DNA of 64,000 bases from Chrysomallon squamiferum (taxonomy: Eukaryota > Animalia > Mollusca). Below, piece by piece: positions 404 to 18,927 of the stretch. The notes under the pieces were generated by a model. That model did no database searches and was not told the DNA's origin. It saw nothing but the letters and a program-made list of their open reading frames with translations. Made by a program: the position numbers and the translations under genes. Each line of letters begins with the position of its first letter. The first letter of the stretch is position 1. Location: assembly GCA_012295275.1 (NCBI GenBank), contig CM022671.1:33232001-33296000 (forward strand). The letters run 5' to 3'.

Positions 404-708
404 GAAAGAAAGAAGGAAAGAAAAGAAAAAGTGATCCATAAATAATTACTCATTTCCGTTGTCTCTGCCGGAGATGTACATAAAAGCTGTATCATTGTGT
501 TTGATGACGTCTGGAACTGCGATCACGATGTAGTGAAACCATATTGGTCGGTCAACTTCCTTTTCTACATATAAATAGATGTGGAAAGAGAAAGAAAAAG
601 AAAATTTTTTACATTTTACTGATCCACACATTTTAATGTTATAGTTGTTGTTATTTAAATATAGAGAGTGAAAAGGAAATAAAAGATGGAAAAAGAGACA
701 ACGAAAGG

Positions 709-764
<56 letters not shown>

Positions 765-957
765 CTGACAGCCACTTCTGTGACGTCATATTGACGAGGT
801 GTAGTGTGTAACCTTCCCCTTTGTATGTCCACTCTAGCGCTTCCCACGAGTAGTGAGGATCAGGGGTGTGGACGTAGTCGTCCAGTGGGGTGGCGGCAGC
901 TCCAAACACACAGACGACGAACATAGCAACACAGATAGGTAGATGTCGATCAAGCAT
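1..957 (-). CDS. AprA/PqaA-like secreted alpha/beta-hydrolase, paralogue A, 5' part only (exons 765-957, 450-564, <1-42; gene continues beyond the window)
   Basis: Spliced reading frame MLDRHLPICVAMFVVCVFGAAATPLDDYV...NMTSQKWLS|EKEVDRPIWFHYIVIAVPD...ISGRDNGNE|YTPDLTDDFVWFIA with GT-AG introns. Nearly identical to exons 1-3 of the complete copy at 3979-11741; position 1 aligns to 10723. Confidence 0.88.
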
Positions 958-1438
958 TTTTCTTTAAAATACAATTTATAAAGCTTAACTTTGATTATTG
1001 TGATCTCTCAAGTAAATATCTATTTCACAAGGATTTTGAAAACTAATTCTTTACAAAATGTTTTTCTTGAAATGGCATTCAGAATACTTCTCAAATCTGC
1101 AGTGTTTGTTGGACCATTCTAGTGTAGCTAAGCCGATGAAAGTCCACATTATATCTCTTTATATTATCTTTAAATGTAGGCTATATCTATCGCATTCATT
1201 AATCTAAAAAAAATAAAAATAATAAATAACTAAACTAAAATAAAATAAATTAAAAATAAAATAGTAAGAAAATAAAAATAAAAAAACGCACAAAAAAGAG
1301 AAAAAATCAGAGATTCCCATGCAAAGAGGTTTGTACAGAGTGGAGTGCTCATAAAACTGACAGAAGAATGAAATAGCTCACAGAGGAGTCTGGTTTCGTT
1401 CAAAAAGAAAGAAAGAAAGAAAAAGTCATTACTCACTT

Positions 1439-3978: not shown

Positions 3979-11741
<7,763 letters not shown>

Positions 11742-12084
11742 TTTTCTCTAAATTACAGTTAAAAAACTTAACTTGGATTATTGTGAACTCTGAAGTAAAT
11801 ATGTATTTCACAAGGATTTTAAAAACGATCTTTGTTTGCACGATCTTTTCTTGAACTGGTATTCTGAATGTTTCTTCAGATTTGCCGTGTGTGTTGGTCC
11901 GTTTTAGAGTATCTAAGCCGATGAAAGTCCACTTTATACCTCTTTATATTATCTTTAAATGTAGGCTATATCTATATCCTTGATTAACCTGGGGAATAAA
12001 CAACACTATAGTTTACAGAAGAATGAAATAGCTCACACAGGACTCTGGTATAGTTCGAAAAGAAAGAAAGGAAGAAAAAGTCAT

Positions 12085-13650: not shown

Positions 13651-13723
13651 GGTTTCGTGGTGTAGTGGTTATCACGTCTGCTTCACACGCAGAAGGTCGC
13701 GAGTTCGAGCCTCGCCGGAACCT
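13651..13723 (+). tRNA. tRNA-Val (anticodon CAC)
   Basis: Full cloverleaf: acceptor GGTTTCG/CGGAACC, D arm GTGTAGTGGTTATCAC, anticodon arm TCTGC-TTCACAC-GCAGA, T arm GCGAG-TTCGAGC-CTCGC. Internal A and B boxes are intact. Confidence 0.96.
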
Positions 13724-13729
13724 CGGCGG

Positions 13730-13735: not shown

Positions 13736-14839
13736 ATTTATTTTTTTATTTTTAAATTTTATCTTTTTTTATATATTCTTTTTGTGTATGGTCTATGTAT
13801 AGGTATTTCCCCCCAATTATCAAATTTTCAAATAACAACATATTGTAAGCAGATTTCGTTAGTGGGTCTGATTCTATTAATGTTCTAATAAGATAATGTG
13901 TATTTGTGAAACATTCAGTTACATTCACAACTGCACATGATTCGGATAAACTATAGTAATGCACATCTATCAGTTTTGAAACTATCTACGACTTAATGTC
14001 ATTCTAGGTGGTTATAAAGGGGTTATCAACATATTAAGTGTTATAAAAAATTAAAAAATTAAACCAGCAATGTTTTCACTGTGTATGCGGCAGGACTTGG
14101 CATGACTTATATGGACTTATTATTAGTAGTATTATCATCATCATTGTCATTATCATTATCATTATCATTATGTATATGCATAGGTATTTAAAATGACATT
14201 TTCCCCACCCAATTATCAAATTTTCATTTAACAAAATATTGTAAGCAGATTTCATTACTGGGTCTGATTCTATTAATGTACTAATAAGATAACATGTATT
14301 TATTACAAATTCAGTTACATTCACAACTGCTGTCACCCTTGTTATATGTGTTTATGCAGTATTATTATGTCTGTTTGTACATATGTAATAAAATTAACAA
14401 ACAAACAAAATAAACAAATACTTTTATTGTGAATTGTCAAGGAATATTCTTCTTATTCAGGTGAAAATTCAGTCTTTGTCTGTAAATATAATTAAAAAGC
14501 TCTCTCTCTTATTTTAAAATATCTTTCACACCTGCAAGTGTTTTCCTTCCTTTCATGTATAAATACAATCTCTTTATCTCTCTCTGACATTCACAGATAT
14601 TTACATATAGTCAGACACATACAACTACATGTACACATATACATAAACTTGCTAATGACTATAATAATGCTTCCATTTTTTTATATGCACACAGAGGCAC
14701 ACACACACACACTCATACACACAAAATAACCCTACTGCTGTAACTAACAAACTTAGCAATACCTGCTTCATCACAACACAATACGTCTGACTTTAAAATT
14801 TCCTGAACTGGTCTCCAGTATCAACACACTCAGGCTGTG

Positions 14840-16568
14840 TTACAGATGCAAAGAATTCAGTTCTTTTGAAAGTCTGAGTGTATCACAGAAGCTGAGAGAG
14901 AATTCCGATTTCACAGAGCTGTAGAAATACTCTGGAGCTCTTCTTTGTAGTTTGACCATCTCTGTGAGCAAGACTCCATCTATGTCAACCATTCTGACAA
15001 ATAAAACACCCACAGAAACAGAAGTAAAATAATGGATGGACAGGATAAAAGTTGGTTGCATGGATGGAATGTTATCTCAACCATTTCACATAATTTTATT
15101 TTCTGTCTGTTTTTTTTTAATTCTTTTTTTTTTAACTGGCCTGAATGCATAAAATTAATAAAATTTTAATGTTAACGAAACTGATAATCAACATAATCAT
15201 TATCATAATCATTCTTATCATCATCATCATCATCATCACAAAATTAATAATATTCATAATAATATCAACACAATTTTGATCATTATATTAATATACTAAC
15301 TTATCTGACAATGTTTTTAAACCAACAGATTCCAACCAATCATGAACTCTGTCTTTTGTCCAGCTTGATACGGCTGTTTTGATTGGTTCTGATTTCTGAG
15401 GTAGTTGTTTTACTGATACTCCTGAACAATAATAAAAGCAGAAAAACTTAAAATTTTTATTTAAAAAGGCGTCAATCAACAACTCATTTAATCATTTCTT
15501 TCTGTGACTGATGTATAACAGGGAACAGGAAATATCTCAATGTAAGTATAGTGGATCAGTGTGTCTAAGGTGGAGATACTGTTCCAACCAGTGCTCCAAA
15601 AGTGGTGTAAGAAAGACTATGGTATATTCTATCCTGTCTGTGGGAGTGTTCATATGTTTCAAATAAATATTTCTTTTCAGTTTTGCTTTATATGAAATTT
15701 CTTTAAAATTATTTTAATTATTATATACTTTTTGAAATTTCAATGAAAATGTGCAAAATATTTTTCTAAAAATTATTTATTTATATATTAAAAAATAAAA
15801 ACAAAAAATTTTAATTTTATTTACCATCAACAATATCGTTAGAAAGTTTTGAAATTCTTCCTCTAGGACCAAGTTCTTTAATCAACTTTGGAATCTGTTT
15901 TTCGATGAGTTCTTCTTTAGAAAAGTCAAAATAAAGTCTACTGCCCACCAGAATGCCCAGCCACCCGTCTGGTGAGAATTTGTGTTGGAGCCGAAGAGGA
16001 ATGATATCTTTATGTAGACGAAAAATATATTCTGATTCTAAAACAAAATGTAAGATAGTGTGAAGTAATGTGGCAGTAGAAGCAGTAGTGGTCACAGTCA
16101 TGGTGTCATGATAGTAGTAGTAGAAACTGCAGCAGCGTTATCTGTATTATTATTTGTGTTAGTAGTAGTGACGGTGGTGACAGAAATAGTAGTAGTAGTA
16201 GTAGTAAGAACTAGCAACAGAAGTGTTGGTGGTTGTGATAACAGTAGTGGTTTAGCAATAATTTATCATCATATTTGACAAATGAAATTAGAATAGTTAA
16301 TAAAATGTGTTATTAATTTTGTTTTTATTATTATCATCATATCTGACCCATGATATAAACATTGTTATTAAAATGTGTTGTCAAAAAAATAAAAAAAAAA
16401 AAAAAAAAAATAAAAATTATTATTTTTGAATTATCCATTCTTTGTTAGTATTTACCTGTTCTGCAGCTTGGACTCTCTTTGTATTTCTCTGTCATACATA
16501 TTAAAATAACTGCAGCTTGCTCCACTGCCAGTGCCATTGCCTCCAGTGTTGACCCAGCTGCAGTAGTA

Positions 16569-16617
<49 letters not shown>

Positions 16618-17451
16618 CAACAGTTTTGTACACATTGTGAGGATTTGTGTTTACTTTTAAGTGTTGAAGATAAAGTATCACGAATCTACGGGAATAAATA
16701 AAAACATAAATTGTGGTAAAATGAAAAATTAAAATAAAATAGAAATGGAGAAGTATATTTGGAGATGTAAATTACTAATAGCTAAAATAACTAAATAAAA
16801 TGAAGTAACATTAAATTCATACTCATATGTTCCACATCCATCCACACCTTGTATCCAGCCTCTTTAAGTTTATCCTTGACCTTTATCATGATAGGCTGCG
16901 ATTCCCATTGGTAGCTTATCATCACGTGACGACAGTTGACGCCTAATTCTAAAAATGCATTCAGTTGCTTATTCGGTCTACGAGTTTATAATGCCACTAT
17001 TTATGATTTAATACAAAGTGAAAAAAGTTTTACTTTCTGTACGTAGTATTTCCATTCTTGATGAGTGATTATATACTGATGATGACCACAGAGCGATAAC
17101 AATTTTAACAACATTGAATATCAAGAACTTGCAGAAATTTGATTTGTGTTCAGAAGTAATGTCTATACCAGACGCCACTTCTTTCTTTCTATTATTTTTT
17201 TTTTTTTTTTTTCTTCTTCTTCTTTTTTACTTATTTATTATTATTTTTAATATAAATTTAATATAATTATGAAAAGAAACTGCTAAGTACTCTAAATCTG
17301 GTGATTGATGATTATACCTCCTTTATTTGTCAACTCGACAGCTCGAAATATTTCCCACAGTGCACCTCTAGCGGCATGACCGGCTGACGTACTTCCTTTA
17401 TTCGCTAAACATTCAAGAGCTTTAAAATAAAATAAAAAATTAAAAATTTAG

Positions 17452-17485
<34 letters not shown>

Positions 17486-18847
17486 TTAAATATATAAATA
17501 AATTTAAATAAAACGATTATTAATTTCGTCGTAAATGTAAATTCTATCCACAGAAAATGATTAATTCTTCTTTAAAATCGTTTATAGCTAATTCTTTTGT
17601 GATTGTAGTACTGTATGTTAGTATACTGAAATATCTGACATATTTATATACATATTCTGAAAGTGATTAAATAAATATATGTAAAATATCTAAATATTGT
17701 CTTTGAATTTCACTCCAAAAACACTATGAACTATAGCTCCAACCGAGTAACAACTATAGTCTGATATTATAAAAACAGCTACATCTACTTCGAAATCATT
17801 GTCTTCTCAATGACAACAATAATAATTCATACCCTTAATACACTGCTGTTCTTCTTTAATCCAGAGTTTGTTTTCTTTGATAAAAGACAAACACCAGACG
17901 CCATTTGCAGCTGCTGTCTGCTCCAAAGCGACTGAAGATTCCAAAAGGCGGGTATATAGAGGTATCGCTCCACACTTTACAACAGTCAATTTGTTGGCAT
18001 CTTCTAAAACTATATTATTAAGTCCTAAGACAATCTCGTGTGAATTCATCCCATATTTGGTTGAGAAATGGTCCACAGAAGACAAACTTTCTTCAAGAAT
18101 TCCTAAGATGAAACTGATCGTGTCAGAGGAAGCGTGGATGATTTCGCTCTCTTTCTCATCTACCAGATATGACAGAACTATAAGAGACTTCGCTTTTATC
18201 ATCATGTTGGCGGAATTACCCGATTCGTATAGATCTTTCAGAATCTTCACTCCGCCCTCATTTCTAATTGTTTGTTTGCTTTGAGAATGGTTTCGCAGTA
18301 CATTGTGAACCAGTCCAAGCAAAGCCTTAACAAAGAACAGCTTTCTGGAATTTTCTAGAACTCTCTCTTTAGAAACAACTTGTAAATGTCTTAGAATTGT
18401 CAGCAGAAATCCTGATCGCGATATCTTTTCACAAGTCTCTAGAAGTTCGTCAGATGATACCCACAACAATGACGTCGTCAGTTTGATACACATCCAGGCG
18501 TCACCCTCCTGGTGATCGGAACTGATTACCTTTTCCACAGATTTCCAGCTTTTCTGGACCAAGACCACAAGATCATGATTGTTTAGTATCTTCAGTATTC
18601 TGCCTTTGAAACTGCTCTCACTCTTGCGAAGGTGATGCCATATGTATTTTAAATCACTGCAACACGAGGCTGTCGTAATGTCAGACGTAGAATTTAACCT
18701 TGACATAGATTCGTTGATTTTCTGAAGAATTATGTCTTGTGTTACTCCGAAGGCTACCGAAGCCAACCTTCCCGATCCATCTTTGTTCGGAAACGATAAT
18801 CTACCGTTTACATCGTCAGAACATTTCTGAGAAGGAAGTGACGTCAT
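14840..18847 (-). CDS. ARM-like repeat / TIR / SAM domain protein (610 aa from ATG 18847; 627 aa if a 19-nt coding exon at 19381-19399 is used)
   Basis: Exons 17833-18847 (acceptor at 18879), 17318-17419, 16823-16948, 16456-16557, 15825-16037, 15301-15421, 14840-14993; 1833 nt in frame, all GT-AG. ARM-like: ALLGLVHN, GGVKILKDL, GAIPLYTRLL, AAANGVWCLSF, AARGALWEI. TIR: HVMISYQW, GYKVWMDV, AMALAVEQAAVILICMTEKYKESPSCRTESEY, IIPLRL, DGWLG. SAM-like: WTKDRVHDWLESVGL...IDGVLL. Confidence 0.9.
15585..15655 (+). mobile_element. Degenerate SINE core fragment (mollusc MetaSINE/RUDI-like, by recollection)
   Basis: CCAACCAGTGCTCCA...TGGTGTAAGAAAGACTATGGTATATTCTATCCTGTCTGTGGGAGTGTTCATAT. A related degenerate string lies at ~39730-39790. 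Not database-verified. Confidence 0.45.
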
Positions 18848-18927
18848 GTCATACTTTTGATACTGTTTAAAAACGCTTTCTAAAATAAAAATTGTATTAC
18901 AGTTAAAAACGTTTTACATTAGCAATG

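What the first reader, a model, noticed from the sequence alone, without database searches (positions are those of the whole stretch)
14840..18879. ARM-TIR-SAM protein: SARM1-like modules in permuted order with an intact catalytic-position glutamate (candidate uncharacterised NAD+-cleaving immune or cell-death enzyme)
Seen: a helical ARM-like region in the first ~370 aa, then a TIR domain (HVMISYQW / VWMDV / SPSCRTESEY / IIPL / DGWLG), then one C-terminal SAM-like domain. Known: SARM1 is ARM-SAM-SAM-TIR, where ARM senses NMN/NAD+, SAM oligomerises and the TIR hydrolyses NAD+. Enzymatic TIRs (SARM1, plant NLR, bacterial Thoeris) use a Glu in the alphaC (W)CxxE motif, here SCRTE. The TIR looks closer to the TIR_2/enzymatic type than to TLR/MyD88 adaptors, and I see no transmembrane, LRR or death domain. 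Inference: a cytosolic sensor-NADase distinct from SARM1 that depletes NAD+ or makes cADPR-type signals on SAM-driven assembly.
Basis: partly seen in the sequence, partly recalled or inferred. Interest (0 to 1): 0.85.

Follow-up and report, generated by a model that had tools for sequence, protein, structure and literature searches.

The report
Ancient ARM-TIR-SAM enzyme candidate, not SARM1
This predicted seven-exon gastropod gene encodes the same three kinds of module as the nerve-death enzyme SARM1 in a different order, and it belongs to a separate, catalogued but apparently untested family shared with corals, early fishes, slime moulds and green algae that likely destroys NAD+ when switched on.

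Summary
Seven GT-AG exons on the minus strand (18847-14840) give an open 610-aa ARM-TIR-SAM protein, 66% identical and colinear with an annotated snail protein (Gigantopelta aegis; TIR 86%). RNA contigs did not show the joins. The alphaC glutamate (E449) is kept in 152 of 154 relatives. The protein is not a permuted SARM1: a Lottia orthologue is listed in 'Clade 10' of a 2026 eukaryotic TIR atlas (called uncharacterised there), while SARM1 is Clade 8. The same order occurs in corals, lancelet, lamprey, bichir, Physarum and Chlamydomonas. The tryptophan four residues before the glutamate, which known cADPR-isomer makers carry, is absent in all 154, so linear ADPR (NAD+ loss) is more likely than a cyclic signal. 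The ARM part resembles beta-catenin-type peptide-binding repeats; NMN sensing is unsupported. Best reading: an ARM-gated, self-assembling NAD+ hydrolase (about 0.4; any NAD+ cleavage about 0.65). Nothing is shown biochemically, and only 12 of 61 animal TIRs with the glutamate were active in a recent screen. The scan reported this family before, in a sea urchin. An ordinary member of an interesting, testable family.

The parts
17833..18847 (-). Coding exon 1, aa 1-339: short disordered N-terminus, then most of the armadillo solenoid
   Evidence: start ATG matches two relatives
17318..17419 (-). Coding exon 2, aa 339-373: last armadillo repeat (GALW motif) and link to the TIR
16823..16948 (-). 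Coding exon 3, aa 373-415: TIR betaA-alphaA-betaB (HVMISYQW, VWMDV)
   Evidence: (TIR_2 E 1.5e-7)
16456..16557 (-). Coding exon 4, aa 415-449: TIR BB loop to helix alphaC; ends with the first base of the Glu449 codon
15825..16037 (-). Coding exon 5, aa 449-520: rest of the Glu449 codon, TIR C-terminal half (IIPL, DGWLG), start of linker
15301..15421 (-). Coding exon 6, aa 520-560: flexible linker and first half of the SAM-like domain
   Evidence: (SAM_2 E 0.0012)
14840..14993 (-). Coding exon 7, aa 560-610 and stop: second half of the SAM-like domain
18848..18879 (-). Probable 5' untranslated part of exon 1, behind an AG acceptor at 18880-18881 (inferred)
   Evidence: sequence

Best explanation
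The gene is predicted to encode a cytosolic ARM-TIR-SAM protein of the uncharacterised Clade 10 TIR family that likely works as a switchable NAD+ hydrolase: the armadillo repeats would bind a protein cue and hold the TIR off, the C-terminal SAM would bring copies together, and the assembled TIRs would cut NAD+ mainly to nicotinamide and linear ADP-ribose, draining NAD+ in defence or cell death. Shown here: the exon chain, the three domains and their order, the glutamate and its conservation, the lack of the E-4 aromatic residue, family membership and range. Inferred: catalysis, the product, gating by ARM, assembly by SAM, the biological role. It works like SARM1 by analogy but was probably put together independently.
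For: Glu449 sits in helix alphaC and aligns with the Glu of TIR-1 'HKE' and Cat1 'WCWDE'. Kept in 152 of 154 distinct complete TIR domains (one Asp, one gap); S384 152, Y385 151, W408 154, D410 152, Y440 154, C446 152, R447 151 of 154. The TIR is the most conserved part: 38 of 127 columns at 80% or more, against 22 of 332 in ARM and 6 of 76 in SAM. Top structural matches are the SPARTA TIR-APAZ NADases (Z 17.5, rmsd 2.3, 128 aligned). E-4 is Asn (93), Ser (53) or another non-aromatic residue in 154 of 154; Manik et al. found an aromatic residue there in 12 of 12 cyclase TIRs, and removing it shifted products to ADPR. 147 of 190 relatives of 450 aa or more are ARM-TIR-SAM. At least 6 of 28 choanoflagellate Clade 10 rows read carry a coiled-coil-type label where the SAM stands (that these labels are coiled coils is my knowledge), which fits an exchangeable assembly module. 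Multiple copies in Physarum, choanoflagellates, Porites and hemichordates fit an immune role.
Against: No biochemical data for any member that I could see. Only 12 of 61 animal TIRs chosen for having the glutamate were active in E. coli, and most active ones made cADPR without draining NAD+; TLR2 and IL-1R9/10 keep the glutamate yet are inactive. The E-4 tryptophan also supports plain activity in SARM1, L6 and Roq1, so its loss could mean low or no activity. The fold matches adaptor TIRs almost as well (Hydra TRR-2 Z 16.1-16.5, MyD88 14.7). The alignment to the TIR-1 glutamate is weak (stretch E about 5) and no residue-level superposition on SARM1 E642 was available. The molluscan copies follow the species tree, which looks more like a conserved housekeeping or signalling gene than a fast-evolving sensor. 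Domain packing in the full model is uncertain (pTM 0.66). Splicing and expression are not shown.
Confidence: 0.4

Rival explanations
1. Signal-making TIR enzyme: same gating, but the product is cADPR or another ADPR-derived messenger made at low turnover for a separate receptor.
For: Most active animal TIRs in the 2026 screen made cADPR, among them non-TLR proteins from a mollusc, an echinoderm, a lancelet and a fish, and the figure legend lists ARM among their domains. Invariant Y440, W408, W474 and near-invariant W387 might stand in for the missing tryptophan.
Against: No aromatic residue at E-4 in 154 of 154, against 12 of 12 cyclases. No partner receptor is linked in the window.
Confidence: 0.23
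2. Non-enzymatic adaptor: ARM binds a partner, TIR and SAM polymerise and recruit signalling proteins; the glutamate is kept for structure.
For: 49 of 61 animal TIRs with the glutamate gave no product in the screen. Fold equally close to adaptor TIRs. Earlier surveys file ARM-TIR proteins as putative TLR adaptors.
Against: Pocket-lining positions are near-invariant over 154 domains. The family is present in green algae and amoebozoans, where a TLR-MyD88 pathway is not known (my knowledge). The screen tested isolated domains without their oligomerising partners.
Confidence: 0.25
3. A SARM1 paralogue made by rearranging SARM1's exons, keeping the NMN/NAD+ sensor in the ARM domain.
For: Same three domain types. 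Whole-model Foldseek ranks SARM1 first (E 8e-7, but TM 0.27, 11% identity). The SAM profile hits SARM1 and TIR-1 SAM weakly. UniProt names one lancelet member 'NAD(+) hydrolase SARM1'.
Against: TIR is Clade 10, not Clade 8, about 20% identical to the SARM1 TIR but 56 of 109 identical, by hand count, to a Chlamydomonas Clade 10 TIR. ARM best matches are beta-catenin and designed armadillo repeats; SARM1 is not among the top 50 by Z. One SAM, behind the TIR.
Confidence: 0.06
4. Another nucleotide chemistry (NADP+, NAD-capped RNA, or nucleic-acid-derived 2',3'-cNMP) is the real activity.
For: Such TIR activities exist (search listing of PMC10937652; passage on L7). The family has its own invariant residues around the pocket.
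Against: Nothing in the data points to a nucleic-acid substrate.
Confidence: 0.06

Closest known systems
Clade 10 TIR proteins of the eukaryotic TIR atlas (PMC13142454, Supplementary Table 1)
   Same: The Lottia protein P0174 (599 aa; TIR 67% identical to the Gigantopelta orthologue and in the same gastropod clade) matches table row 2615, Clade_10, annotated ARM-like, TIR, SAM_1. The same order is listed for Branchiostoma, Strongylocentrotus, Petromyzon, Physarum and Chlamydomonas.
   Different: Nothing of substance; the paper calls clades 10-13 uncharacterised and the section read does not discuss this architecture. Clade 10 (408 rows) also holds other layouts: TIR then SAM in 17 of 56 rows read.
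SARM1 / dSarm / C. elegans TIR-1
   Same: ARM, SAM and TIR in one cytosolic chain; alphaC glutamate; TIR fold Z 15.7, rmsd 2.1-2.7.
   Different: Order ARM-TIR-SAM against ARM-SAM-SAM-TIR; one SAM; different TIR clade; no E-4 tryptophan (SARM1 W638); beta-catenin-like ARM with no sign of the NMN pocket.
'ARM-TIR' proteins of oyster and Aplysia surveys; amphioxus 'TIR-SAM'; ecTIR-DC families (Gerdol et al. 2017, not seen)
   Same: Cytosolic invertebrate TIR proteins with armadillo folds, function unknown; a TIR-SAM cDNA was recovered in amphioxus in 2008.
   Different: These are domain-content labels covering several families. The divergent SAM is often missed (Pfam misses it in P0151) or may lead to a 'SARM' label.
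Bacterial TIR NADases SPARTA TIR-APAZ and Cat1
   Same: Best fold match (Z 17.5) and best single TIR stretch by sequence profile (E 0.002); YxxSxxCxxE helix.
   Different: 13-19% identity; activated by Argonaute or cyclic oligoadenylate (entry titles); Cat1 keeps the E-4 tryptophan.

Membership tests
SARM1 family | Domain order ARM-SAM-SAM-TIR | tested here: not met
   Order is ARM-TIR-SAM with one SAM
SARM1 family | TIR of the SARM1 clade (Clade 8; WxxxE helix) | tested here: not met
   Lottia orthologue is Clade_10, SARM1 Clade_8; about 20% identity; E-4 is Ser. The clade calls are the paper's; I built no tree with SARM1
SARM1 family | ARM domain with allosteric NMN/NAD+ pocket | tested here: inconclusive
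   Best ARM matches are beta-catenin-type repeats; pocket residues could not be compared
Catalytic TIR NADases | TIR fold | tested here: met
   pLDDT 93, pTM 0.88; Z 14-17.5 to solved TIRs
Catalytic TIR NADases | Glutamate on helix alphaC at the catalytic position | tested here: met
   E449 in alphaC, aligned to the TIR-1 and Cat1 glutamates, 152 of 154; side-chain orientation and residue-level superposition not available
Catalytic TIR NADases | Measured NAD+ cleavage | not testable with these tools
   needs assay
Catalytic TIR NADases | Activation by self-assembly | tested here: inconclusive
   One four-copy prediction gave no verdict
cADPR-isomer-forming TIR cyclases | Aromatic residue four before the glutamate | tested here: not met
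   0 of 154; rule from 12 enzymes
Clade 10 ARM-TIR(-SAM) family | TIR sequence signature (M-x-S-Y-x-W, W-x-D, GSxL-x-x-MA, Y-x-x-S-x-x-C-R-x-E, GWLG) | tested here: met
   11 of 15 MISYQW rows read are Clade_10, 2 Clade_11, 2 unplaced
Clade 10 ARM-TIR(-SAM) family | Orthology to a listed member | tested here: met
   Groups with Gigantopelta (100), and with Lottia P0174 in a gastropod clade (98) of the quick tree; P0174 matches table row 2615
TLR/MyD88-type adaptors and receptors | Transmembrane plus LRR/Ig, or death domain | tested here: not met
   None found

The most novel reading that the evidence does not exclude
ARM-TIR-SAM is an ancestral eukaryotic NAD+-destroying defence or death switch, kept with a barely changed active site from green algae and slime moulds to snails, lamprey and bichir, and missing from the usual laboratory animals. 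SARM1 would then be a second, independent arrival at the same three-module design using a bacterial TIR. The Chlamydomonas member would let it be tested genetically.
Probability: 0.3. Interest if true: 0.8.

Novelty: new member of a known kind. Interest (0 to 1): 0.48.

Why it matters
This gene is an ordinary orthologue, but its family is one of the large untested TIR groups (408 rows in the atlas table). If it is an enzyme, many animals and protists have a regulated NAD+-consuming switch besides SARM1, and the ARM+TIR+SAM design arose twice. The work here gives two sharp predictions: the product should be linear ADPR, and the C-terminal SAM should be needed, which isolated-TIR screens would miss. 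It also flags that 'SARM' or 'NAD(+) hydrolase SARM1' labels on invertebrate proteins can belong to this other family.

Tried and rejected
Whole genome: none is held for this window, so copy number, a separate true SARM1 gene and synteny were not tested. RNA: 3 RNA runs and 1 run of unrecorded kind laid on 14300-17150; the RNA contigs crossed exon-intron borders like DNA and showed no splice joint, at depth too low to count against the gene. My first exon chain had wrong ends for exons 5 and 6 and gave stops; corrected. A possible extra exon near 15480-15660 was dropped because the orthologue aligns without it. No second copy in the window (tblastn). Four-copy TIR-SAM prediction: no verdict (score 0.29, mark 0.32, controls not folded); it is no evidence either way. 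A PDB search with alignment A2 repeated the ARM hits and was uninformative for the TIR. Single-sequence PDB search found only weak hits (best Cat1, E 0.29). No named insect, nematode or mammal protein among the 120 of 314 hits listed or the 91 shorter hits; these word-based searches do not show absence. Atlas feature search for the SAM scored under 0.9 (lead only). Literature searches with no paper: 'ARM-TIR-SAM'; 'SARM-related' + 'sea urchin' + 'TIR'; 4 of TIR domain/Chlamydomonas/armadillo/sterile alpha/Physarum. Passages of PMC7075850 and PMC9153377 did not describe this family. The 3'cADPR-making Chlamydomonas TIR of the Sorek preprint (E264) is probably another gene: in the listed Clade 10 model the glutamate falls near residue 336 (hand count). 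Earlier scan findings by sequence: none.
Full report
Observation. The window is AT-rich eukaryotic DNA. On the minus strand seven exons (18847-17833, 17419-17318, 16948-16823, 16557-16456, 16037-15825, 15421-15301, 14993-14840) join through 6 of 6 GT-AG introns into an open frame of 610 codons. Pfam finds Arm, TIR_2 and a sub-threshold SAM_2 on the separate exon frames in that order. A search with exon 1 returned the NCBI protein LOC121369460 of the snail Gigantopelta aegis, also 610 aa (P0151). The model matches it at 404 of 610 positions (ARM 67%, TIR 86%, SAM 57%) with no gap at a junction, and at every intron the chosen splice pair scores best among 6-20 nearby pairs. Direct RNA proof is missing: three shallow RNA runs from one study, laid on 14300-17150, showed only unspliced pieces.

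Anatomy. P0151 served as stand-in for folding. The model (48 sequences, pLDDT 87, pTM 0.66) has a disordered first 22 residues, a helical solenoid to about 365, a TIR at 376-503, a flexible linker and a helical domain at 536-608. The solenoid is closest to beta-catenin, radial-spoke and designed armadillo repeats (Z 19-21, rmsd 5-8, about 300 aligned); SARM1 is not among the top 50, although Foldseek on the whole chain lists SARM1 first with TM 0.27. Conserved ARM positions include W129, N182, E271, D283, N285, K286, W318, F322 and W360; Trp and Asn on the groove helices are typical of peptide-binding armadillo repeats (my knowledge), so a protein cue is the simplest guess. The TIR alone (pLDDT 93) matches SPARTA TIR-APAZ (Z 17.5), Hydra TRR-2 (16.5), SARM1 (15.7), AbTir (15.4), RUN1 (15.2) and MyD88 (14.7) (the wide search, ranks TRR-2 first at 16.1), so the fold does not tell enzyme from adaptor. 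The last domain is a divergent SAM (TM 0.65-0.70 to SAM_2 domains).

Family. HMMER over 1.84 billion representatives gave 475 hits for the ARM exon (150 listed); 39 of these 150 were ARM-TIR-SAM, 15 ARM-TIR, 1 a doubled ARM-TIR-SAM, 94 ARM only (many short, possibly single-exon pieces) and 1 had no match. Over all 358 proteins fetched, 147 of the 190 with 450 aa or more are ARM-TIR-SAM and 27 are ARM only. Named members come from molluscs, annelids, nemerteans, a brachiopod, hemichordates, echinoderms, lancelet, corals and the bichir Polypterus. A quick tree of the model and 44 named proteins (unnamed hits, near-duplicates and double-TIR forms left out; SH-aLRT only) puts the 24 molluscan rows on one branch (97) in an order close to mollusc phylogeny, with the window's gene beside Gigantopelta (100). 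So this gene is a vertically kept orthologue; Lottia has at least two further paralogues.

The decisive link is the TIR atlas of PMC13142454. Its text puts SARM1 in Clade 8, of bacterial origin, and calls clades 10-13 uncharacterised and common in non-model eukaryotes. In its Supplementary Table 1, row 2615 matches my P0174 (same length, same first 400 residues by eye) and is Clade_10 with ARM-like, TIR and SAM_1 domains; human SARM1 is Clade_8. Of 408 Clade_10 rows I read 56 in series: 17 have a SAM after the TIR, among them Physarum, Vexillifera, five chlamydomonad algae and three choanoflagellate rows. Motif and species searches added sea urchin, lancelet, lamprey and Chlamydomonas reinhardtii. 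By hand count the window's TIR and the C. reinhardtii TIR share 56 of 109 positions without a gap, against about 20% with SARM1. The order ARM-TIR-SAM is therefore widespread in eukaryotes and is unlikely to be a rearranged SARM1. Whether it descends from the eukaryote ancestor or spread later was not tested.

Mechanism. Glu449 lies in helix alphaC and a family profile aligns it with the glutamate of TIR-1 (weak, stretch E about 5) and Cat1 (E 0.002); the TIR hits among the 30 matches are TIR-1, Cat1, SARM1 and RPS4. That these glutamates are the catalytic ones is recalled. It is kept in 152 of 154 distinct complete TIR domains (89 partial hits left out), with S384, Y385, W408, D410, Y440, S443, C446 and R447 nearly invariant. 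This argues for a selected pocket. The E-4 position is Asn, Ser or another non-aromatic residue in all 154. Manik et al. (10.1101/2022.05.07.491051) found W, Y or F there in 12 of 12 cyclase TIRs and a shift to ADPR on mutation, so if the enzyme is active, linear ADPR is the better bet; the same residue also aids plain activity in SARM1, L6 and Roq1. The base rate calls for caution: in 10.64898/2026.04.20.719644, 12 of 61 animal TIRs with the glutamate were active, mostly making cADPR without NAD+ loss; TIRs from a coelacanth, a rotifer and a lancelet did drain NAD+; the domains were tested in isolation. That paper's tables, which I could not see, may already include a member of this family. 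Coiled-coil-type labels in place of the SAM in at least 6 of 28 choanoflagellate rows suggest that the C-terminal module serves assembly. My odds: NAD+ cleavage of some kind about 0.65; gated hydrolase making linear ADPR 0.4; signal maker 0.23; scaffold 0.25; SARM1 paralogue 0.06; other chemistry 0.06.

What is known. ARM-TIR proteins of unknown function are tabulated for oyster and Aplysia, a TIR-SAM cDNA for amphioxus, ecTIR-DC families for invertebrates (cited; Gerdol 2017 itself not seen), and UniProt gives some members automatic names such as ADP-ribosyl cyclase or NAD(+) hydrolase SARM1. I found no paper with the term ARM-TIR-SAM and none testing a member (searches; open-access library only).

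Papers seen: 10.64898/2026.04.20.719644, parts 1-5 of 6 of the text, no supplements; PMC13142454, passages, one section and row searches of Supplementary Table 1; 10.1101/2022.05.07.491051, passages and one section; PMC9334734, PMC4346834, PMC6321704, PMC2575513, PMC6836662, PMC6040629, PMC7075850 and PMC9153377, passages only; PMC10937652, search listing only.

Verdict. A real, well-conserved gene, a new member of a catalogued but untested family. Interest 0.48: the gene itself is ordinary, while the family's age, conservation and testability are worth following.

Noticed in passing
window 661-963 and 8700-11750, minus strand: Two near-identical first exons and further exons of a PhoPQ_related (PF10142) gene, apparently a tandem duplicate. 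In eukaryotes this family is AprA-like (name recalled).
   Followed up: partly
window 24868-27798, minus strand: PET and LIM domain exons of a prickle-like gene upstream of the TIR gene on the same strand.
   Followed up: partly
window 13651-13724, plus strand: tRNA-Val (CAC) about 1.1 kb downstream of the stop codon.
   Followed up: no
window about 13800-13940 and 14200-14335: An imperfect direct repeat of roughly 130 bp downstream of the gene, seen by eye.
   Followed up: no
window about 19220-19400, minus strand: A GTAAGT donor near 19219 behind a CpG-richer stretch may be the untranslated first exon of the gene; untested.
   Followed up: no
window 16031 and 16037: Two in-frame acceptors 6 nt apart at exon 5; both keep Glu449 but the second removes two residues from helix alphaC. 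One database model (P0146) lacks the residue at this position, perhaps a mis-called junction.
   Followed up: partly
P0008, P0009, P0014 and 24 others: 27 of 190 long relatives share the ARM region but have no TIR or SAM: a possible TIR-less sister group; P0008 has no Pfam hit.
   Followed up: no
P0285 and atlas table row 1789: The family reaches vertebrates: bichir (38% over ARM end, TIR and SAM) and lamprey.
   Followed up: partly
window 14983 and 15312: Run X3 differs at two coding positions, one conservative change in the SAM and one silent by my reading; none listed in the TIR exons.
   Followed up: no
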